DNA of 32,000 bases from Candidatus Saccharimonadota bacterium (lineage in GTDB: Bacteria > Pseudomonadota > Gammaproteobacteria > Enterobacterales > Enterobacteriaceae): assembly GCA_041941765.1 (NCBI GenBank), contig CP145869.1, positions 340,011-372,010 on the forward strand, given 5' to 3'. The translations under genes and the position numbers were made by a program. How positions within the stretch are numbered: the stretch's first letter is position 1; each line of letters starts with the position of its first letter. Positions 10,269-30,149 of this stretch are shown piece after piece. The notes below the pieces were generated by a model. The model saw only the letters and a list, made by a program, of their open reading frames with translations. It had not been told where the DNA came from and did no database searches.

Positions 10269-10739
10269 ATGATAAATAAAAAAATACATACTATTACTAA
10301 TAATAGACGTGCTTATTATGAATATTCTATTGAAGATACATTTGAAGCTGGTATTATATTACAGGGCTGGGAAGTAAAATCTCTTCGTTTAGGAGGACAA
10401 GTCCAAATAAGTAATAGTTATGTCTTATTACATAATGGAAATGCTTATTTAGTAGGTACTCATTTTCAACCTACACCCAATGTATCTAATCATATAACTT
10501 GTAATCCAATTCGTGAAAAAAAATTATTACTTAAACAAAGAGAATTAAAAATTTTATATGGTAAAGTAAAGCATAAAAGATATACAGTGATTGCTTTATC
10601 TTTATATTGGAAAATAATTTGGTGTAAAGTACTTATTGGAATTGCTAAAGGTAAAAAACAATATGATAAACGTGTTCATATTAAAAATCGTGAATGGAAA
10701 ATTGATAAAGAACGTTTTATAAAAAATAAAATGATATAA
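10269..10739 (+). CDS. smpB: SsrA-binding protein SmpB
   Basis: 156-aa ORF with [29 protein letters not shown], immediately upstream of the tmRNA gene. Confidence 0.95.
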
Positions 10740-10757
10740 ATCTAATAATAAGATATT

Positions 10758-11131
10758 GGGGCTGTTTTTGGATTCGACGTAAAGAGTGAAATCTTAGGTG
10801 CATGTCAAGGTGCGGTAGGCCTTGTTAAAAACCGCAATAAATAGTCGCAAATAACGACAATTATGCTTTAGCAGCCTAAAAAACTGTGTTAGAGCCCTCT
10901 AATTCTTAATCTAATAAGCTCTTAAGAAAAGAATAAAAAGAGGTCATTTAAAAATAAGAGCTCGCGTATCTGCTAATCCTAATAAAGATACGTTAAATGA
11001 TTATATAGGATAGTTTATTAATAGTGTGTCGGTCAACTATTAAATAAATGAATAAAAAAGACTAGACTAAACATGTAGTACCAAAGACGTAGACATTACG
11101 GACGCGGGTTCGAATCCCGCCAGCTCCACCA
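10758..11131 (+). ncRNA. ssrA: tmRNA (SsrA), one-piece form with encoded CCA
   Basis: The 5' ggggctg pairs with the 3' cagctcc, including the G3:U alanine identity pair, and is followed by acca. A T-arm-like ggacgcgggttcgaatcccgcc is present, along with an internal tag ORF. It lies next to smpB. Confidence 0.93.
10847..10879 (+). other. tmRNA tag-peptide reading frame, ANNDNYALAA*
   Basis: gca aat aac gac aat tat gct tta gca gcc taa. Compare the E. coli tag ANDENYALAA; the C-terminal YALAA degron is conserved. Confidence 0.85.
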
Positions 11132-14916: not shown

Positions 14917-17472
14917 GTGCACTTAGATCGTTTTACAAATGAATTTAAATTAGCGTTAGCTGATGCATCATATATAGCTTTAAAAAATAATAACCAATTT
15001 ATTGAACCATTACATGTTATGTTAGCATTTTTAAATCAAGAAAATGGATTTTTTCTAGGTCAATTAATAAATTCAATGGGAGTTAAAACAATAGATTTAT
15101 TACGTAAAAAAATTGAACAATTGATTGACAATCTTCCTAAAATTTACGGTAATAATGTAAATTGTCAATATTCTAATGAATTAATACATATTTTGAATAT
15201 ATGTAATCAATTAGCACAAAAACAAAAAGATACTTTCATTTCATCTGCATTATTTTTATTGGCTATAATGAGTAAAGATGGGTTATTAACTGATTTATTA
15301 AAATCTTTAGGTATAAATCAAGAAAAGGTTAGTAATATTTTTACCAATTTACGGGAAAACCAAGCTGTGAATAATTTAGATATATTTAAAAAATATTCTC
15401 ACGATCTTACTGAAAGTGCTGAAAAAGGAAAATTAGATCCCGTAATTGGACGTGATGAAGAAATCCGTCGTACTATTCAAGTTTTACAACGTCGTACTAA
15501 AAATAATCCAGTTTTAATTGGTGAACCAGGGGTTGGAAAAACAGCCATTGTTGAAGGATTAGCTCAAAGAATTGTGAATAAAGAAGTACCTGAAGGATTA
15601 AAAAGTAAACGAGTATTAGCATTAGATATGGGAGCTTTATTAGCTGGTACCAAATATAGAGGAGAATTTGAAGAGCGTTTAAAATTAGTTTTAAAAACTA
15701 TAGGTCAACAAGAAGGGAATATCATTTTATTTATTGATGAATTACATACTATGGTGGGAGCAGGAAGAACCGATGGAGCTATAGATGCTAGCAATATGCT
15801 CAAACCTGCTTTAGCACGTGGAGAATTACATTGTATTGGAGCAACTACATTAGATGAATATCGTCAATATATTGAAAAAGAGGCAGCATTAGAAAGAAGA
15901 TTTCAAAAAATATTTATTACTGAACCAACCATAGAGAATACTATAGCTATTTTACGAGGATTAAAGGAACGTTATGAATTACATCATCATGTTCATATCA
16001 CTGATCCTGCAATTATAGCAGCAGTAACATTATCTCAACGTTATATTCCTGAAAGAAAATTACCAGATAAAGCTATTGATCTAATTGATGAAGCCGCGGC
16101 TAGTATACGATTACAAATTGATTCAAAACCCGAATCATTAGATCGTTTAGAACGTCGTATTATACAACTCAAAGTTGAACAACAAGCATTAAAAAAAGAA
16201 ACAGATTCTTCAAGTCTTAAACGTCTTGCTGCTATTAATGCAGATATTCTCTCAGACGAACAAAAGTATACTCAATTACAAACTGATTGGATTAAAGAAA
16301 AACAACTCTTATTAGAAATACAAGCTATTAAAAGTAAATTAGAAGAAACTAAAACCTTATTAGAACAAGCGCGCAGATCAGCGGATTTATCACGAATGTC
16401 GGAACTTCAATATGGAATTATTCCCGAACTAGAAAAACAATTAAATATAATCAAATCTCAGAAAAAGTCTATGCATTTTTTACGTAATCGAGTAACAGAG
16501 ATAGAGATAGCTGACGTATTATCACGTTGGACAGGTATTCCTATATCTCGTATGATGGAAGGAGAACGTAAAAAATTCTTACGTATAGAACAATCATTAC
16601 AAGAAAGAATAATTGGACAACAAGAAGCTATAGAAGCAGTAGCTAATGCCCTTCGTCGTAATCGTGCAGGATTATCAGATACTAATCAACCAATTGGTTC
16701 TTTTTTATTTATTGGACCGACAGGAGTTGGTAAAACTGAACTATGTAAAGCTTTAGCTAATTTTATGTTTGATAGTGATCATGCTATGATACGTCTTGAT
16801 ATGTCAGAATTTATGGAAAAACATAGTGTATCGCGTTTAGTTGGAGCTCCCCCAGGTTATATTGGTTATGAAGAAGGAGGTTACTTAACTGAAATAGTTA
16901 AACATCGTCCTTATTCCGTCATTTTACTAGATGAGCTAGAAAAAGCGCATTATGATATTTTTAATATTTTACTTCAAGTTTTAGATGATGGTCGTTTAAC
17001 TGATGGTCAAGGTAAAACTGTTGATTTTCGCAATACAATTATTATTATGACTTCAAATTTAGGTTCAGATCTGATTCAAAATCAGGTTGAAAAATTTTCT
17101 TATGATAAAATCAAAGATCTTATTTTAAAAAGAGTTAATCAATATTTTCGTCCTGAATTTATTAATCGTATTACTGAAATAGTAGTATTTCATCCTCTTA
17201 ATAAAAAGCATCTAAATGCAATAGTAAAAATTCAATTACAAAAACTTAATCTTCGTTTACAAGAACAAGGTTATCAACTTGATATTTCTAATAATGTATT
17301 AGAATTTTTAGTTGAAAAAAGTTTTAATTCTTCATATGGAGCAAGACCTTTAAAAAGAATTATTCAAAATACTATTGAAAATCTTTTAGCTCGAGATATT
17401 TTAGCTGGAAAACTTAGTATCAATAAACCAATCAAATTAGATTATATTCAGGGAAAACTGGTTTATTCTTAA
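14917..17472 (+). CDS. clpB: AAA+ disaggregase ClpB
   Basis: 851-aa ORF with a GTG start aligned to E. coli MRLDRL. Two AAA modules are present ([15 protein letters not shown] / FIDELH and [15 protein letters not shown] / LLDELEKAH) with a coiled-coil middle domain. It is near-collinear with E. coli ClpB. Confidence 0.97.
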
Positions 17473-17954
17473 CCTTTATTTTTTTTATCACAAAACATAA
17501 CATATTTAGTATCATTTACTGTAGGTGATTTAGCAGCTTTTCGAGCTAATTCATCACAAAGCTCATTATCAGTATTTCCAGAATGTGCTTTAATCCAATT
17601 CCATTCAATTTCATGATAACTTAATTTTTTATAAAGACGTTGCCATAAATCTATATTTTTTACCGGATGTTTATTGTATGTTAACCAACGGCTCTTTTTC
17701 CAATTATGGATCCAATATTTGATTCCTAATTGTACGTATTTACTATCAGTATTTATTTGTACAATACATGGTTGTTTTAACAATTCTAAAGCAACAATTA
17801 CAGCTATAAGTTCCATACGATTATTTGTAGTTAAATAAAAACCTGTGCTTAGTAACTTTTTATATTTTTCATAATATAATATAATACCATATCCTCCTGG
17901 TCCAGGATTTTTTAAGCAAGAACCATCTGTAAAAATTTTTACTTTTTTATACAT
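17469..17954 (-). CDS. rnhA: Ribonuclease HI
   Basis: [17 protein letters not shown], TTNNRMEL, TDSxYV and WIHNWKK motifs. I prefer the ATG at 17954 ([13 protein letters not shown] aligns with E. coli MLKQVEIFTDGSC); the ORF-track start at 17987 adds 11 unaligned residues and would overlap dnaQ. It is divergent from dnaQ, as in E. coli. Confidence 0.9.
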
Positions 17955-17973
17955 TTTAAAATTATTATAATTT

Positions 17974-18705
17974 ATGAAAAAATCCATTACAAGACAAATT
18001 GTCTTAGATATTGAAACTACAGGAATGAATAAATTTGGTATATGTCATGAAGGACACCGAATTATAGAAATAGGTGCTGTAGAAATTTCTTATAGACATT
18101 TTACTGGTAATAATTTCCATACTTATTTAAATCCTAATAGATCAATAGATCCTATTGCAACTTCTATTCATGGAATTACTCAAGAATTTTTATTAGATAA
18201 ACCTTTTTTTTCTCAAATTGTAGATTCATTTTTAGATTATCTTAAGGGATCAGAAATCATTATACATAATGCTTCTTTTGATATTGGTTTTATCAATTAT
18301 GAAATTCAAATGTTAAATCGTAACATTCCAACTCTTGAATCATTATGTTGTTCTATTACAGATACACTTTTATTAGCCCGTAAATTATTTCCTGGCAAAA
18401 GAAACAGTCTTGATTCGCTTTCTAATAGATATCATCTTAATTATAAAACACGAAGATTGAAACATGGTGCTCTATTAGATGCTGAAATTTTAGCTGAGAT
18501 TTATTTAGCCATGACAAGTGAACAAATTTCATTAGATTTTTTTAGTAAAAATAACAAAAAAAAAACCATATCGTCAAAATTATGTTTGACTAATTCAATA
18601 TCTGTACTATGTGTAATTAAAGCTAACCAACAAGAAAATCTTCTTCATGAGAATTATTTAAATCTTATGTTTCAAAAAACTGGTATATGTTTATGGAATA
18701 GTTAA
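17974..18705 (+). CDS. dnaQ: DNA polymerase III epsilon subunit (3'-5' proofreading exonuclease)
   Basis: 243-aa ORF with [12 protein letters not shown] (Exo I), HNASFDIGF (Exo II) and [18 protein letters not shown] (Exo III). Confidence 0.93.
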
Positions 18706-24539: not shown

Positions 24540-24613
24540 TATGATTAAGATTGAAGTTTCGTAATACCCAAAAATTATTTCTTACTTAATAAATTTTGAG
24601 ATAATAAATTTAT

Positions 24614-25035
24614 TCATTGATCTTCTAATATAAAACGTGAGCTTAAGACTTCTCCTACTTTAGATAAAGCCTTTTTAAAATCTAGATAATTATCATCATT
24701 AATACTAACACATAAATATATATCATATAATTTTCTTAAACAATGTGTATTATTTTGTAATGCAACAATAATTTTTGTAATACAGAAATTATTTTCTTGT
24801 AAAACATGACTATTAATAGGCGTGTATAAACATAAAAATGTCCAGATGATAAATAATCTAATAAATATGAGCAAAAAATAGTTATGGTTTTTTCATCAAT
24901 TACTTCATAAATTTTTTTATGAGGTTTAAAACCTATAAGATTATAATACGCTATAAGTAGTCTTTGTCGTGTTTTTAATAGACCATCTACAATAGATTGA
25001 TTTATAGTAATATTTTTTTTTAATTGATTTAGCAT
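24614..25035 (-). pseudogene. rsd: Regulator of sigma D (Rsd), interrupted by a frameshift; appears as two overlapping ORFs
   Basis: ORF 24736..25047 encodes MLNQL...LLIAYYNLIGFKP...FCSYLLDYLSSGHFYVYTRLL, matching E. coli Rsd residues 1 to about 77. ORF 24614..24874, in a different frame, encodes ...HVLQENN...NDDNYLDFKKALSKVGEVLSSRFILEDQ*, matching the Rsd C-terminal half. The frames switch around 24806-24818. The span 25035..24614 is 422 nt, which is not a multiple of 3. The likely start is the ATG at 25035, with a ggag SD at 25042-25045. Confidence 0.75.
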
Positions 25036-25403
25036 ATTAAACTCCATACATAACTATTTTATTATTAATTTATAATTATTACACTTAATTGAAAAATTAG
25101 AATGTAATTAATTTTTTTAATAACAATTAGTAGTAATAATAATTCTTAGGATATAAAAAAATGACTTAGTGATGATCTTACGATTGTTTTTTACTTGTAT
25201 TGTAATATAAGATATAGAACAATAAAAAACTTGATCAAATTAGGAAAGAATAAGAATTATTAAAAAAGTTAAAATTATCCATAAAATGAATTAATATTCA
25301 TTGAACTAATAAAATATGAGAAATTAAAAAAAATTTTAATAAAATATTTAAATTTTAAATAGAGTTAGTAACTCTCATAAAATAATCTAAGGATAATTAC
25401 ATT

Positions 25404-26390: not shown

Positions 26391-27293
26391 ATGAATATTA
26401 ATAAATTGAATTCTTGTTTTTTAATTGATGGAACTTTTTATGTTTATAAAGCTTATTATGCGTTACCTGCTTTAACTAATAGTTTAGGAGAACCTACTGG
26501 TGCAATTTATGGTGTATTGAATATGCTTAATAATATTTTAGAAAATTATAATCCGAAATATATGTTAGTAGTTTTTGATGCTCCACAAAAAACTTTTCGA
26601 CATAAATTATTTCCTCAATATAAATCACATAGATTATCTATGCCTAATTCTTTACAGCTTCAAATTCAACCATTATATAATATAATTAAGGCTATGGGAA
26701 TTCCTATATTAATAGCACAAGGAGGTGTAGAAGCTGATGATATTATTGGTAGTTTAGCACAATCTATAGAACTTCAAGGAGGTACAGTTTTTATAGATAG
26801 TAATGATAAAGATATAGCACAATTGGTTACATCTAATATTAGAGTAATAAATACGAGCAATAATACAATTCTAGGACCATTAGAAGTTTGGAAGAAATAT
26901 GGAGTACCTCCTAATTTAATGATTGATCTTATAGCCTTAATGGGAGATTCTTCAGATAATATTCCTGGAATACCAGGAATAGGCATTAAAACTGCACAAA
27001 AATTATTAACTTATATAGGTAATCTTAATAAAATATTTTCTAATCTACGTAAAGTAGCTGAACTCTCTTTTCCAAGAGCTAAATCTTTAGCATTAAAATT
27101 AGAAAAATCTAAAGATATAGTATTTCTTTATCGTATTCTTGCTACTATAAACACTAATATTCCGATTCAAATGAATTATAATGAATTAAGAGTAACTAAA
27201 CCCAATCGAAACCAATTCCTAAGATTGTGTCAATATTATGAATTTAAAAATTGGATCCATAAAATAAAAAAAGATCTATGTAATTTAAAATAA
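26391..27293 (+). CDS. polA: DNA polymerase I reduced to its 5'-3' exonuclease (FEN) domain
   Basis: 300-aa ORF collinear with E. coli PolA residues 1 to about 320 (LIDGxxYxYxAYxAxPxLTNSxGEPTGAxYGVLNML, VVFDA, GVEADDIIG, DKDxAQLV, ALMGDSSDNIPGIPGIG). The stop falls where the Klenow fragment would begin. It shows synteny with dsbA. Confidence 0.88.
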   Translation: MNINKLNSCFLIDGTFYVYKAYYALPALTNSLGEPTGAIYGVLNMLNNILENYNPKYMLVVFDAPQKTFRHKLFPQYKSHRLSMPNSLQLQIQPLYNIIKAMGIPILIAQGGVEADDIIGSLAQSIELQGGTVFIDSNDKDIAQLVTSNIRVINTSNNTILGPLEVWKKYGVPPNLMIDLIALMGDSSDNIPGIPGIGIKTAQKLLTYIGNLNKIFSNLRKVAELSFPRAKSLALKLEKSKDIVFLYRILATINTNIPIQMNYNELRVTKPNRNQFLRLCQYYEFKNWIHKIKKDLCNLK

Positions 27294-27430
27294 TAAATTT
27301 TAATTAATTAGATCAATGTATTTTTATTGAAAAATAAATATTAATTTAATATTGTTTCTTATATTAACATATTAATTAATAGTAGTATGTAATAATAATT
27401 TATATGTAATGATATTAATTAAATCAAATA

Positions 27431-27514
27431 TGCCCAGAGCGGGATTCGAACCCACATAGCTATATTGCTGAGGGATTTTAAGTCCCTTGTGTCTACCACT
27501 TCCACCATCCGGGC
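27431..27514 (-). tRNA. leuZ: tRNA-Leu (anticodon UAA), class II long variable arm, no encoded CCA
   Basis: The reverse complement gcccggatggtggaagtggtagacacaagggacTTAAaatccct... folds as a cloverleaf: a 7-bp acceptor stem with one G:U, anticodon stem aggga/tccct, loop ctTAAaa, and T-arm gtgggttcgaatcccgc. It is close to E. coli leuZ. Confidence 0.9.
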
Positions 27515-27536
27515 TATAATAAATACTTCTTAAGTG

Positions 27537-27607
27537 AGGCGCGTCTCGGAATTGAACCGAACTATACGGATTTGCAATCCGTTGCATAACCACTCTGCCA
27601 ACGCGCC
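27537..27607 (-). tRNA. cysT: tRNA-Cys (anticodon GCA), no encoded CCA
   Basis: The reverse complement ggcgcgttggcagagtggttatgcaacggattGCAaatccgtatagttcggttcaattccgagacgcgcct has a perfect 7-bp acceptor stem, anticodon stem acgga/tccgt, loop ttGCAaa and discriminator U. The order cysT-leuZ matches the E. coli glyW-cysT-leuZ operon. Confidence 0.9.
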
Positions 27608-27881
27608 ATATATAATAATATTTTTATTAATTTTACTCAATAAGTTAATATTATTAAATTAGTTTTTTGTATTTTTGCTATAAAAAATAATTATTTATTG
27701 CAACTAAAAATAGTTTATATAATAAAAATAACACTTTTAGTAAAAAAAAGTAAATAAATAAATTATATATAATAAGTATTATTAATTAATTTGATATATT
27801 TTAAAAATATAGATTTATTTTTTAATGTATTTAATAGTTAATAAACATGAAGACTTTTTATTTAATTAAACTTTTTTCAAA

Positions 27882-29879
27882 TTAATTTTCGATTGGATCT
27901 ACATCTAATGACCATTTTATGTGTTTAACTTTAGGTAACGCAAAAATAGTTTTGATATTAAATTTAATAATATCTTGTAATTTTCTACGTATAGGATGTT
28001 GTAAAAGTAATTGCCATCGATATTTTCCATTGCACTTACTTTGTAATGCAGGTATAGGACCCATAATTAACAATTGATTATCAGTAATAGTATTAAATAA
28101 CTTACGTATTTGATGAAGAAACATTTTTGCATGATAATTATCATTATCTTCTGCTCTAATTAGTACATGGTTTGTATAAGGTGGTAATGAAATTATTTTT
28201 CTTTCTTTCAAAATTTCATCAGTAAAAGACTCATAACTTTGATATAATAATTTATTTAATAAAGGATGATTGGGATGATAAGTTTGTAATAATATTTCTC
28301 CAGATTTTTTAAAACTGACATATCTAGCAACCTGTATATAAAGTTGTGCTAAACGTTCAGAGGAACGAAAATCTCCTGAAAATAAAGCTCCATCAATATT
28401 TAATAAAGCTACTAATGTCACTTGAGGAAAATGATATTCTTTAGCTGCTAATATTTGTGTCCCTATTAAAATTCTAGCCTTTTTCTGTAAAAAAGGTGTT
28501 AAATAGTATTGAATGGTTTTATTATTTATTGTATCACGATCAATACGTGAGATTGGTATATTAGGAAAAATTTTTTTTAGTTGGTATTCAATTTGTTCAG
28601 TACCAATTCCTAATTTAATAAGATTCCTTATTCCACAATTTTCACAAATTTCTGGAATTGGAGTTGTATTATTGCAATAGTGACATTGTAAGTATTGATA
28701 TTCTTTATGATATGTAAAATTATGATTACATAAATTACATTTAGCAATCCATCCACATTTTTTACAAATCATTGCCGTTGAAAAACCACGTTTATTTAAA
28801 AATAAAAATACTTGATTATTACATTGTAAATGTAGAGTAATTTTCTTTATTAAAACATTAGATAACCCTGTTAATCTTTGGTTGGCTGTTTTTAAATTAA
28901 TAATCTGTGGTTTAAACAACCAAGGAGATATATTAGTTTGTGGTTTTAGTTGTAATAATTTATATTTACCTAATTGAACATTATATAAAGTTTCTAATGA
29001 TGGAGTAGCTGAACTAAGTACAATAGGTATATTGAGTTTTTGAGATAAAAATACTGCTAAATCTCTTGCTTGATATTTCCATCCTTTTAGTTGTTTATAA
29101 GAACAATCATGTTCTTCATCAATGATAATTATTCCGAGACATAAAAAAGAAGTTAAAAGAGCTGACCTTGTACCTATAAGAATATAAATTTCTCCTTTAC
29201 GAACTTTCATCCAAATTTTTAAACATTTAGTATTATTAATACCTGAATGTATCACGTCTATTGGAATATTAAAAGTTTTCTTCAAACGTGTCATTAGTTC
29301 AGATATTAAACTAATTTCAGGGACTAATATAAGTACTTGACGACCTATAGTTAAAATATAATGTATTATATGTAAATATACTTCAGTTTTTTCTAATTTA
29401 GTAAAATAAGTTAATAACCAAGCATTAAATTTATCAGACTGATTACATATAGTTTTAATAGCTATTTTTTGTTGATCATTTAATACTGATTTTAATTTAG
29501 GATATATTACAGTATTATTAATTGTTTTAGAAAAATCCGAATGCCAATCGGTACACTTTTGACCTTTTCTTAATAAACTAGGAAGAGAAAAAAATAGTAT
29601 TTTACCTAAAGGGTAATGATAATAATCTGCAGCCCAACGTAACATATTCCACAATTCTGGATTAAATAAAGATTGATTATCAATAATCTGATTAATCTTT
29701 TTTAAAGATTTTATAGGAATAGAAGTTGTAGGTTTAATATTTATAATAATTCCAATTATATTACGATTACCAAAAGGTACATTTACTCTAGTACCTATTA
29801 GAGGTTTTAGATGTATCGGACAAATATAATCAAATTTTTCAAAAATCCTAATAGGTAAAACAACTTGAACAATAAGCAT
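27882..29879 (-). CDS. priA: Primosomal replication-restart protein PriA (helicase motifs I and VI degenerate)
   Basis: 665-aa ORF collinear with E. coli PriA. The N-terminal DNA-binding region (VPFGNR...WAADYYHYPLG), DEEH box (IIIDEEHDCSYKQ), SATP, the Cys-rich zinc region (CKKCGW...CNLCNH...CHYCNN...CENCG) and the C-terminus KWSLDVDPIE are all present. It is divergent from rpmE, as in E. coli. Confidence 0.9.
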   Translation of the reverse strand: MLIVQVVLPIRIFEKFDYICPIHLKPLIGTRVNVPFGNRNIIGIIINIKPTTSIPIKSLKKINQIIDNQSLFNPELWNMLRWAADYYHYPLGKILFFSLPSLLRKGQKCTDWHSDFSKTINNTVIYPKLKSVLNDQQKIAIKTICNQSDKFNAWLLTYFTKLEKTEVYLHIIHYILTIGRQVLILVPEISLISELMTRLKKTFNIPIDVIHSGINNTKCLKIWMKVRKGEIYILIGTRSALLTSFLCLGIIIIDEEHDCSYKQLKGWKYQARDLAVFLSQKLNIPIVLSSATPSLETLYNVQLGKYKLLQLKPQTNISPWLFKPQIINLKTANQRLTGLSNVLIKKITLHLQCNNQVFLFLNKRGFSTAMICKKCGWIAKCNLCNHNFTYHKEYQYLQCHYCNNTTPIPEICENCGIRNLIKLGIGTEQIEYQLKKIFPNIPISRIDRDTINNKTIQYYLTPFLQKKARILIGTQILAAKEYHFPQVTLVALLNIDGALFSGDFRSSERLAQLYIQVARYVSFKKSGEILLQTYHPNHPLLNKLLYQSYESFTDEILKERKIISLPPYTNHVLIRAEDNDNYHAKMFLHQIRKLFNTITDNQLLIMGPIPALQSKCNGKYRWQLLLQHPIRRKLQDIIKFNIKTIFALPKVKHIKWSLDVDPIEN

Positions 29880-29942: not shown

Positions 29943-30149
29943 ATGAAGAAAAACATTCATCCTAATTATAATTTTATTACTGCAACATGTAGTTGTGGTA
30001 ATATAATAAAAATTCGATCTACTTTAAAATCCAATTTATTTTTAGATGTATGTTGTCAATGTCATCCATTTTATACGGGAAAACAGCGTATTATTGATAC
30101 AAAAGGTCGTGTTGAAAAATTTAATAAACGTTTTAATTTAGTTAACTAA
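29943..30149 (+). CDS. rpmE: 50S ribosomal protein L31 (zinc-binding type)
   Basis: 68-aa ORF: [20 protein letters not shown]...[13 protein letters not shown]...[10 protein letters not shown]. All four Cys residues are present. Confidence 0.95.

What the first reader, a model, noticed from the sequence alone, without database searches (positions are those of the whole stretch)
27882..29879. PriA is kept as a full-length ORF, but its ATP-binding P-loop and helicase motif VI are destroyed
Two helicase motifs are lost while the flanking residues align without gaps.
- Walker A: E. coli PriA reads LLAGVTGSGKTEVY. This gene reads LLTYFTKLEKTEVY. I verified the codons act tat ttt act aaa tta gaa aaa act on the minus strand at 29411..29385. 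All three glycines of GxxGxGKT are replaced (Y, K, E); only K-T remains.
- Motif VI: E. coli QVAGRAGRAGKQGEV becomes QVARYVSFKKSGEI (cag gtt gct aga tat gtc agt ttt aaa aaa, 28334..28305). The GRxGR arginine-finger element is lost.

Other parts are intact: the N-terminal DNA-binding region, DEEH (motif II), SATP (motif III), all eight zinc-region cysteines and the C-terminus.

This pattern suggests selection is keeping a scaffold or primosome-loading function while ATPase and helicase activity has been given up. In E. coli, Walker-A mutants such as K230R lose helicase activity yet still support primosome assembly and most priA functions. A natural helicase-dead PriA would be a neat in vivo confirmation.
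Basis: partly seen in the sequence, partly recalled or inferred. Interest (0 to 1): 0.7.

Follow-up and report, generated by a model that had tools for sequence, protein, structure and literature searches.

The report
Natural helicase-dead PriA kept by selection
A beetle endosymbiont keeps a full-length replication-restart protein PriA whose ATP-binding site is wrecked but whose other domains are still under normal purifying selection, which makes it a natural "pseudohelicase" of a kind already shown in Deinococcus and seen here to recur in several insect symbionts.

Summary
The ORF at 27882..29879 (-) is priA of Candidatus Dasytiphilus stammeri, the strain from the beetle Psilothrix viridicoerulea. 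Walker A reads TYFTKLEKT instead of AGITGSGKT. Motif VI has lost both arginines and one codon. No substitute P-loop or GRxGR exists anywhere in the protein.

The four closest strains (64-70% identical) keep canonical motifs, so the loss is specific to this lineage. An independent assembly of the reads gives the identical protein.

The gene is not decaying. My codon model rejects dN/dS = 1 (p = 7e-14). Relaxation is confined to helicase lobe 1 (0.24 against 0.10 background, p = 6e-4). The 3'-DNA-binding and C-terminal domains are unchanged (0.18 against 0.18), and seven neighbouring genes show no lineage effect.

That allele needs PriB, and the published gene tables list no priB, priC or dnaT for this strain and no dnaC or dnaA entry at all.

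It is not unprecedented. Deinococcus PriA is a proven pseudohelicase. I also found similar motif erosion in Ishikawaella, Erwinia haradaeae, and Sodalis-like and Arsenophonus symbionts.

Verdict: a new member of a known kind, of moderate interest.

The parts
27882..29879 (-). priA coding sequence, 665 codons plus stop. It encodes a winged-helix-less PriA with a dead ATP site.
   Evidence: The protein is identical to P0001 from Ca. Dasytiphilus stammeri, and an independent assembly gives the same protein.
29568..29879 (-). 3'-DNA-binding domain (residues 1-104), conserved.
   Evidence: Pfam PF17764, E = 3.7e-27. There are 6 lineage-specific changes, against 7 and 7 in two sister strains. dN/dS on this branch is unchanged.
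29490..29567 (-). Short linker (residues 105-130) in place of the winged-helix domain. The deletion is shared with the four closest strains.
   Evidence: Alignment. No PF21213 hit for P0001-P0005. The best fold match is the 6DCR winged-helix-deletion PriA.
28914..29489 (-). Helicase lobe 1 (residues 131-322). Selection is relaxed on this lineage only.
   Evidence: 30 lineage-specific changes, against 6 and 3 in sister strains. dN/dS is 0.242 against 0.101, p = 6e-4, and still well below 1 (p = 2e-10). The result holds under an alternative topology.
29385..29411 (-). Destroyed Walker A / P-loop: T-Y-F-T-K-L-E-K-T (residues 157-165) in place of A-G-I-T-G-S-G-K-T.
   Evidence: There are 8-9 nucleotide changes, and 6 of the 7 ancestral G's have become A or T.
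29109..29120 (-). Motif II, DEEH (residues 254-257), retained.
29001..29012 (-). Motif III, SATP (residues 290-293), retained. The preceding Gly has become Ser.
28635..28766 (-). Cysteine-rich zinc region. All eight Cys are present (372, 375, 381, 384, 399, 402, 412, 415).
   Evidence: These columns are invariant. Pfam PF18319 scores 21.8 bits, below its cut-off of 26.
28425..28463 (-). Damaged motif V: GTQILAAKEYHFP (residues 473-485). It has a one-codon insertion plus M to I, G to E and H to Y.
28305..28334 (-). Destroyed motif VI: QVARYVSFKK (residues 516-525). It has a one-codon deletion, and both arginines of GRxGR are lost from their positions.
27885..28214 (-). C-terminal domain (residues 556-665), conserved.
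   Evidence: Pfam PF18074, E = 3.2e-18. There are 5 lineage-specific changes, against 5 and 4 in sister strains.
29943..30149 (+). rpmE (ribosomal protein L31), the divergent neighbour. The synteny is conserved in all related strains.

Best explanation
This is priA of the Dasytiphilus strain from Psilothrix viridicoerulea, and it has become a pseudohelicase.

On this one lineage the nucleotide-binding site was lost:
- P-loop glycines replaced by Y, K and E
- motif V Gly replaced by Glu, plus an inserted residue
- both motif VI arginines gone

The protein therefore almost certainly cannot bind or hydrolyse ATP, translocate or unwind DNA. This is inferred from sequence and has not been measured.

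The rest of the protein is still maintained by purifying selection at the same intensity as in strains with an intact motor. That covers the 3'-end-binding domain, the aromatic-rich DNA-binding loop, the zinc-binding cysteine-rich region and the C-terminal domain. This part is shown here.

The most likely retained job is the ATP-independent half of PriA's function. PriA would recognise abandoned forks and D-loops made by the RecA, RecBC and RuvABC proteins that the genome keeps, bind and remodel SSB-coated lagging-strand DNA, and act as the landing platform on which DnaB is put back. The published gene tables list no priB, priC or dnaT for this strain and no dnaC entry for any strain. The hand-off to DnaB must therefore be direct, or go through SSB, as proposed for the Deinococcus pseudohelicase. 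It cannot use the E. coli PriA-PriB-DnaT-DnaC relay. This last step is inferred.
For: Identity and motif loss.

Lineage specificity: the four closest strains (64-70% identical) and the more distant Dasytastes- and Danacea-type strains keep canonical motifs I and VI.

Not an artefact: an independent assembly gives the identical protein. All indels in motifs V and VI are in frame.

Selection:
- Whole-gene dN/dS on this branch is 0.21 against 0.15 background. A value of 1 is rejected at p = 7e-14.
- By partition: 3'BD+linker+CTD 0.180 against 0.182 (p = 0.97); lobe 1 0.242 against 0.101 (p = 6e-4); lobe 2+CRR 0.208 against 0.150 (p = 0.18). A value of 1 is rejected in every block at p <= 2e-10.
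- The result holds under the alternative topology.
- Seven neighbouring genes (1592 codons) give 0.153 against 0.150 (p = 0.89), so there is no lineage-wide relaxation.
- Of 65 lineage-specific residue changes, 30 fall in lobe 1. Two sister strains have 9 of 57 there (Fisher p = 4e-4).
- At 200 columns invariant in 16 relatives, only 14 differ here. Four are the P-loop residues and the rest are conservative.

ORF survival: with the substitution spectrum measured at fourfold sites on this branch, a neutral priA would be expected to carry about 20-30 stop codons by the minimum time needed for 6 of 7 P-loop G's to decay. The probability of no stop is below 1e-13.

Predicted fold: PriA-like. The best match is 6DCR with TM 0.69-0.72.

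Context: gene tables of the genome paper.

Precedent for a working PriA without a motor.
Against: No biochemistry exists, so loss of ATPase activity is inferred from motif chemistry only. Lys-Thr of the P-loop, DEEH, and motifs Ia, III and IV survive, so some residual or unusual nucleotide binding cannot be formally excluded.

Branch dN/dS averages the time before and after the loss. Synonymous sites are near saturation in this genome (GC3 about 10%), so the absolute values are rough. Nei-Gojobori figures are much higher than the model-based ones.

The timing argument assumes that the P-loop changes accumulated one at a time at the neutral rate.

The absence of priB, dnaT, priC, dnaC and dnaA rests on the published KEGG tables. 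I did not search the whole genome myself.

E. coli genetics predicts that a helicase-dead PriA without PriB is as bad as no PriA. The proposed PriB-independent loading role therefore has no enterobacterial precedent.
Confidence: 0.72

Rival explanations
1. The gene is an early pseudogene. PriA is no longer needed in this strain, and the ORF is merely not yet interrupted.
For: The same window shows ongoing erosion of DNA-metabolism genes: rsd is frameshifted and polA is cut down to its 5'-3' exonuclease. At the protein level the PriA branch is about twice as long as in sister strains. Nei-Gojobori three-taxon arithmetic on the values gives a branch dN/dS near 0.8.
Against: dN/dS = 1 is rejected in every domain block. 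The non-helicase domains show no relaxation at all: 0.180 against 0.182, with an approximate upper bound of 0.25. Changes at otherwise invariant columns outside the P-loop are few and conservative. The probability of an open 665-codon frame falls below 1e-6 after neutral evolution over only 10% of the branch. Both indels are in frame. priA is kept in all 20 sequenced strains.
Confidence: 0.08
2. The protein is still an active ATPase and helicase that uses a non-canonical nucleotide site. Lys-Thr, DEEH and motifs Ia, III and IV remain, and older kinetic work on PriA proposed a second, weaker nucleotide site.
For: K164-T165, DEEH, LVPEI and SATP are retained. [quoted passage not shown] Lobe 1 is still under purifying selection, at 0.24.
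Against: All three P-loop glycines are replaced by bulky or charged residues (Y, K, E), with Glu directly before the Lys. Both motif VI arginines and the motif V glycine are also gone. In E. coli a single conservative K230R change abolishes ATPase, helicase and translocase activity. The relaxation is centred on exactly the motor lobe. Retention of lobe 1 is explained by its DNA-binding face and its structural role.
Confidence: 0.07
3. The motif changes are sequencing or assembly errors, or come from a minority variant in the symbiont population.
For: The genome is a metagenome-assembled genome from a single host sample.
Against: A second, independent assembly of the reads (Logan, SRR27812163) gives the identical protein. 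The changes are 20 or more point substitutions plus two in-frame indels spread over three motifs. They follow the G/C-to-A/T spectrum of this genome, and lobe 1 carries about 25 further substitutions. Errors do not produce that pattern.
Confidence: 0.02
4. The protein has taken on a different job. It could be, for example, a structural SSB or DNA-binding factor, or a fork-protection factor, that no longer loads DnaB at all.
For: All known partner proteins of the enterobacterial pathway are reported absent. E. coli genetics says helicase-dead PriA without PriB does not support restart.
Against: The pattern of constraint is that of an ordinary PriA minus its motor. The same domains are conserved at the same dN/dS as in strains with intact PriA. 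This argues for continuity of the non-motor function rather than a new one. Deinococcus PriA, which also lacks a motor, binds forks and DnaB.
Confidence: 0.11

Closest known systems
Deinococcus radiodurans PriA pseudohelicase (Lopper, Boone & Morrow 2015, PMC4504706)
   Same: It is a full-length PriA whose helicase motifs have departed from consensus, retained in the genome. It was shown to lack ATPase and unwinding activity while still binding ssDNA, forked DNA and DnaB. It acts without the E. coli-type PriB/DnaT relay.
   Different: The Deinococcus-Thermus change is ancient and phylum-wide. It affects motifs I and II, with Lys to Arg in GKT. Here the loss is recent, confined to one strain within a genus whose sister strains are canonical, and it hits motifs I, V and VI while DEEH and Lys-Thr remain. 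The present case is untested biochemically.
E. coli priA300 (K230R) and K230A/D laboratory alleles
   Same: These are ATPase-, helicase- and translocase-dead PriA variants that still assemble primosomes and give nearly wild-type cells (review PMC5778457).
   Different: Those alleles depend on PriB and DnaT, and priA300 priB-null equals priA-null. The published gene tables for this symbiont list neither, nor priC, and contain no dnaC entry. The natural protein has many changes, not one, and also lacks the winged-helix domain.
Engineered E. coli PriA winged-helix-deletion protein (PDB 6DCR)
   Same: It is the best sequence-collinear and best fold match. The natural protein lacks the same segment.
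   Different: 6DCR keeps an intact motor. The natural deletion is ancestral to five Dasytes-clade strains, four of which keep canonical helicase motifs.
PriA of other host-restricted Enterobacterales symbionts: Ca. Ishikawaella capsulata, Ca. Erwinia haradaeae, the Sodalis-like symbiont of Drepanosiphum, and Arsenophonus of Ornithomya
   Same: These are full-length PriA proteins with eroded motifs (I, II, IV, V, VI in various combinations). All keep the eight CRR cysteines, the 3'BD and the CTD.
   Different: Most are more advanced, with motifs II and IV also gone. I found no paper describing this pattern. Their partner-gene content was not examined here.

Membership tests
PriA / primosomal protein N' (TIGR00595) | Whole-protein match to the curated family model above its cut-off | tested here: met
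   TIGR00595 scores 517 bits against a cut-off of 230. The more specific enterobacterial equivalog NF004065 scores 839 against 858, just below its cut-off.
PriA / primosomal protein N' (TIGR00595) | N-terminal 3'-DNA-binding domain | tested here: met
   PF17764, E = 3.7e-27, residues 5-100.
PriA / primosomal protein N' (TIGR00595) | Winged-helix domain (present in enterobacterial PriA) | tested here: not met
   About 65 residues are missing, and there is no PF21213 hit. The deletion is shared with P0002-P0005. Many representatives of 654-692 aa align to the query in a single stretch, so shorter PriA proteins that may also lack this segment occur elsewhere. This is therefore not disqualifying.
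PriA / primosomal protein N' (TIGR00595) | Cysteine-rich zinc region with eight Cys inserted in helicase lobe 2 | tested here: met
   C372, 375, 381, 384, 399, 402, 412 and 415 are invariant. The Pfam model scores 21.8, below its cut-off of 26.
PriA / primosomal protein N' (TIGR00595) | C-terminal domain | tested here: met
   PF18074, E = 3.2e-18.
Active SF2 helicase | Walker A, GxxxxGK[ST] | tested here: not met
   The motif reads TYFTKLEKT, and no alternative exists anywhere in the protein.
Active SF2 helicase | Motif II, DExH | tested here: met
   DEEH at residues 254-257.
Active SF2 helicase | Motif VI arginines (QxxGRxGR) | tested here: not met
   The motif reads QVA-RYVS, with a one-codon deletion.
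Active SF2 helicase | ATP hydrolysis and DNA unwinding | not testable with these tools
   This needs the purified protein.
PriA pseudohelicase (Deinococcus type) | Descends from PriA, has lost catalytic motifs, and the gene is retained under selection | tested here: met
   Motif loss. Purifying selection.
PriA pseudohelicase (Deinococcus type) | No ATPase or helicase activity, but fork DNA binding and DnaB interaction | not testable with these tools
   Shown biochemically only for D. radiodurans.
Pseudogene | Frameshift or premature stop, and dN/dS near 1 | tested here: not met
   The frame is open and uninterrupted. dN/dS = 1 is rejected at p = 7e-14. Both indels are in frame.
E. coli-type PriA-PriB-DnaT-DnaC restart pathway | priB, dnaT and dnaC present in the genome | not tested
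   Only 32 kb of the genome was available, and it holds none of them. The genome paper lists priB in the Danacea clade only, and dnaT and priC in no strain. Its KEGG table, which was stored uncut, has no dnaC, dnaA or rep entry.

The most novel reading that the evidence does not exclude
Loss of the PriA motor may be a recurrent, selectively tolerated step in the genome reduction of enterobacterial insect symbionts. At least five lineages were seen here: Dasytiphilus, Ishikawaella, Erwinia haradaeae, a Sodalis-like symbiont and an Arsenophonus symbiont.

In genomes that also lack PriB, PriC, DnaT and DnaC, and apparently DnaA, the motor-less PriA would be the main, ATP-independent DnaB-loading platform. 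It would work directly on RecA/RecBC-made D-loops. PriA's essential core activity would then be structure recognition plus helicase recruitment without any known adaptor. Recombination-dependent loading might even serve as the routine way these symbionts start replication.
Probability: 0.2. Interest if true: 0.8.

Novelty: new member of a known kind. Interest (0 to 1): 0.55.

Why it matters
PriA's helicase motifs are conserved in almost all bacteria. Yet E. coli tolerates motor-dead alleles, so what the motor is for, and what PriA does without it, remains an open question.

This case offers a clean natural comparison. Sister strains 64-70% identical differ in having a live or a dead motor, and selection on the non-motor domains is unchanged. 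It occurs in a genome whose published gene tables list none of the partners that make motor-dead PriA work in E. coli.

Together with the other symbiont lineages found here, it gives a set of independent natural experiments. They could be used to define the minimal, ATP-independent function of PriA and to ask how DnaB is loaded without DnaC, DnaT or PriB.

Tried and rejected
1. Dating the loss from decay of G/C in the P-loop. Fourfold G/C sites on this branch are saturated (28 of 28 changed). Only a lower bound on the time since loss could be obtained, so I used it only for the stop-codon survival argument.

2. Pairwise Nei-Gojobori dN/dS. dS plateaus near 0.4 because GC3 is about 10%, which inflates the ratios (0.32-0.56). 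Biopython's YN00 failed on many domain subsets. I replaced both with my own GY94-type maximum-likelihood branch model that shares synonymous branch lengths across partitions.

3. Looking for a displaced P-loop or GRxGR elsewhere in the protein. None was found.

4. Looking for priB, dnaT or dnaC in the window. None is present. The rest of the genome could not be fetched, so I relied on the genome paper's tables.

5. AlphaFold with a 17-sequence alignment gave only a moderate model (pLDDT 70, pTM 0.58). I used it only to confirm a PriA-like, winged-helix-less fold, not for any active-site argument.

6. Literature searches for prior reports of motif loss in symbiont PriA found nothing specific.

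7. I looked for a Shine-Dalgarno sequence upstream of priA. None is evident in this strain or its sisters, so this was uninformative.
Full report
**What is there**

The ORF at 27882..29879 on the minus strand encodes 665 residues.
- Pfam finds the PriA 3'-DNA-binding domain, a DEAD/ResIII helicase core, a sub-threshold PriA zinc ribbon and the PriA C-terminal domain.
- NCBIfam TIGR00595 (priA) scores 517 bits against a cut-off of 230.
- Solved E. coli and Klebsiella PriA structures match at E = 1e-203 to 1e-206.
- The protein is identical to a database entry from a Candidatus Dasytiphilus stammeri genome of 464,075 bp.
- Table 1 of Wierz et al. 2024 gives that size for the symbiont of the dasytine beetle Psilothrix viridicoerulea.
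- The window is about 26% G+C. It carries ordinary housekeeping genes, from infB to a 16S rRNA gene.
- priA lies divergent to rpmE, as in its relatives.

**Checking the observation**

I aligned the protein with 16 relatives and with 24 relatives.

| Motif | This protein | Relatives |
|---|---|---|
| Walker A | LLTYFTKLEKTEVY | LLAGITGSGKTEVY |
| Motif VI | QVA-RYVS-FKKSG | QVAGRVGR-GKKSG |

At the DNA level:
- The P-loop core differs from the inferred ancestor by 8-9 substitutions, nearly all G/C to A/T.
- Motif V carries an in-frame 3-nt insertion.
- Motif VI carries an in-frame 3-nt deletion.
- No Walker-A-like or RxGR pattern exists anywhere else in the protein.
- DeaD, ClpB and IF2 from the same window keep canonical motifs.

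DEEH, SATP, LVPEI, the aromatic-rich loop residues, all eight CRR cysteines and the C-terminal domain are kept.

First, the winged-helix domain (about 65 residues) is missing. This deletion is shared with the four closest strains. The best fold match of an AlphaFold model (pLDDT 70) is the engineered E. coli winged-helix-deletion PriA, 6DCR. Second, the motifs do not all align without gaps.

A separate Logan assembly of run SRR27812163 encodes the identical protein, so an assembly error is unlikely.

**Who else has it**

Thirteen Dasytiphilus PriA sequences were recovered.
- The four closest keep canonical motifs I, V and VI. They come from the Dasytes plumbeus/virens, D. niger and two further Dasytes-clade genomes (the latter two assigned by me, from genome size and gene numbering, to D. 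aeratus and D. alpigradus) and are 64-70% identical.
- A neighbour-joining tree of seven flanking proteins plus PriA gives (P0005,(window,(P0004,(P0002,P0003)))), with 82-100% bootstrap support.
- The loss therefore happened on the terminal branch leading to the Psilothrix strain.
- A second clade (P0014, P0074, P0105; I take it to be the Listrus clade, from its cluster member counts) keeps Walker A and DEEH but has an altered motif V and has lost the second motif VI arginine. Two of its members 74% identical to each other still show dN/dS of about 0.15.

**Is it decaying?**

At the protein level the window's PriA branch is 1.4-2.1 times as long as those of its sisters. Most of the flanking genes give ratios scattered around 1.

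The excess is localised. The counts of lineage-specific changes are:

| Region | Window strain | Two sister strains |
|---|---|---|
| All residues | 65 | 34 and 23 |
| Helicase lobe 1 | 30 | 6 and 3 |
| 3'BD | 6 | 7 and 7 |
| CTD | 5 | 5 and 4 |

The enrichment in lobe 1 gives Fisher p = 4e-4.

Standard pairwise estimators behaved badly at GC3 of about 10%. I therefore wrote a GY94-type codon likelihood model with F3x4 frequencies. Branch lengths are in synonymous units and shared across partitions.

| Data set | dN/dS, window branch | dN/dS, background | Test of equality | Test of dN/dS = 1 |
|---|---|---|---|---|
| Whole priA | 0.209 | 0.146 | p = 0.075 | rejected, p = 7e-14 |
| 3'BD + linker + CTD | 0.180 | 0.182 | p = 0.97 | rejected, p <= 2e-10 |
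| Lobe 1 | 0.242 | 0.101 | p = 6e-4 | rejected, p <= 2e-10 |
| Lobe 2 + CRR | 0.208 | 0.150 | p = 0.18 | rejected, p <= 2e-10 |
| Seven neighbouring genes (1592 codons) | 0.153 | 0.150 | p = 0.89 | not tested |

- The lobe 1 result survives the alternative placement of the window strain (0.223 against 0.101, p = 0.0014).
- The relaxation is therefore gene-specific and domain-specific.
- At 200 columns invariant in 16 relatives, the window protein differs at 14. Four are the P-loop residues and the others are conservative.

**Has the ORF been kept since the loss?**

I measured the substitution spectrum at fourfold sites on this branch: A 0.20, T 0.17, and G/C 28 of 28 changed. I then computed how fast a neutral priA would acquire stop codons.
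- About 3-5 stops are expected after 2% of the branch.
- About 13-20 stops are expected after 10% of the branch.
- Losing 6 of the 7 P-loop G's needs at least 17-28% of the branch, at the 95% lower bound.
- By that time the probability of an open frame is below 1e-13.

This assumes that the P-loop changes accumulated singly at the neutral rate. With that caveat, the frame has been held open by selection after the motor was lost.

**What it probably does**

The conserved parts are the ones that recognise the 3' end at a fork or D-loop, bind ssDNA and SSB, and carry the zinc-binding region. The part released from constraint is the motor.

[quoted passage not shown] It does so only through PriB and DnaT, and a priA300 priB-null strain looks like a priA null (review PMC5778457).

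For this symbiont the genome paper reports the following:
- priA, recA, recB, recC, ruvABC and ssb in all strains
- priB only in the Danacea clade
- priC, dnaT, recD, recG and recFOR in no strain
- no dnaC, dnaA or rep entry in the KEGG orthogroup table, which was stored uncut; dnaB and dnaG are present

I could not check the whole genome myself.

Taken at face value, the retained function cannot be E. coli-style primosome assembly. The closest working model is Deinococcus radiodurans PriA. That protein has no ATPase or helicase activity but binds ssDNA, forks and DnaB (PMC4504706).

I therefore propose an ATP-independent fork and D-loop recognition platform that hands DnaB to the lagging-strand template directly or through SSB. 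The selection evidence is shown here. The loss of ATPase activity and the DnaB hand-off are inferred.

**Wider pattern**

A full HMMER scan of 1.84 billion representatives returned 150 PriA proteins. Seven lack a Walker A and ten lack GRxGR. Those that carry names are all host-restricted symbionts:
- Ca. Ishikawaella capsulata
- three Ca. Erwinia haradaeae strains
- a Sodalis-like symbiont of Drepanosiphum
- an Arsenophonus symbiont of Ornithomya

Their motif tables form a graded series. Some have lost only V and VI, or II, V and VI. Others have lost I, II, IV, V and VI. All keep the eight cysteines, the 3'BD and the CTD. The ratio of lobe 1 identity to terminal-domain identity drops from about 1.2-1.36 in canonical proteins to 0.85-1.2 in these. 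In the window protein it is 1.02. I found no paper describing this pattern.

**Verdict**

It is wrong to lean on the E. coli K230R analogy and to imply a first.

This is a new member of a known kind, the PriA pseudohelicase. Its value is as a recent, well-bracketed natural experiment in a genome reported to lack every known PriA partner, and as one of several apparently independent symbiont cases.

Noticed in passing
P0128, P0133, P0140, P0194, P0125, P0122, P0159, P0178, P0226 (proteins): PriA of other insect symbionts has eroded helicase motifs in graded combinations. The symbionts are Ca. Ishikawaella capsulata, Ca. Erwinia haradaeae (three strains), a Sodalis-like symbiont of Drepanosiphum and Arsenophonus of Ornithomya, plus three unnamed contigs. 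All keep the eight CRR cysteines, the 3'BD and the CTD. This looks like a recurrent and apparently unreported pattern.
   Followed up: partly
L011 10001-12202, L012 10001-12205 (P0014, P0105) and P0074: In this second Dasytiphilus clade (which I take to be the Listrus clade) PriA keeps Walker A and DEEH. Motif V has an inserted residue and Gly to Val, and the second arginine of motif VI is lost. The gene is still under purifying selection (YN00 dN/dS 0.145 between two members). This may be an independent, earlier stage of motor loss.
   Followed up: partly
window 29490..29567 and the same place in L002, L005, L006, L008: The winged-helix domain of PriA (about 65 residues) is deleted in all five Dasytes-clade strains. 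The natural protein mimics the engineered E. coli winged-helix-deletion construct, 6DCR.
   Followed up: partly
window 26391..27293 (+) and 27294..27881: polA is reduced to a 300-aa 5'-3' exonuclease ORF. tblastn with a sister strain's polymerase ORF finds no remnant of the polymerase domain in the window. The D. plumbeus/virens genome shows the same state. Three other strains keep a separate 576-603-aa polymerase ORF next to the exonuclease ORF.
   Followed up: partly
window 24608..25047 (-): rsd (regulator of sigma D) is frameshifted near 24811-24814. Two overlapping ORFs of 103 and 86 aa replace the 148-167-aa protein of sister strains, so this is a likely pseudogene.
   Followed up: partly
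window 27372..27593 (-): The 73-aa ORF listed here is spurious. It overlaps tRNA-Leu(taa) at 27431..27514 and tRNA-Cys(gca) at 27536..27607, which explains its 'conservation' in other strains.
   Followed up: yes
window 10758..11131 (+) and 10269..10739 (+): A tmRNA gene with tag peptide ANNDNYALAA lies directly after smpB, so trans-translation is retained in this 464-kb genome.
   Followed up: no
window 17469..17987 (-): rnhA (RNase HI) is present, overlapping the start of dnaQ. An intact RNase HI argues against R-loop-primed (cSDR-type) replication as the reason for keeping PriA.
   Followed up: no
Supplementary file 2 of PMC11191362: The KEGG orthogroup table for all 20 Dasytiphilus genomes contains dnaB and dnaG but no dnaA, dnaC or rep entry. 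If this is correct, these symbionts lack both the initiator and the helicase loader.
   Followed up: partly
L011 13324..14170: Only short glnA fragments remain downstream of priA in this strain (56-aa and 31-aa ORFs with glutamine synthetase domains). The strain carrying P0015 (L013, which I take to be Dasytastes-clade) has an intact 469-aa glnA at the same place.
   Followed up: no
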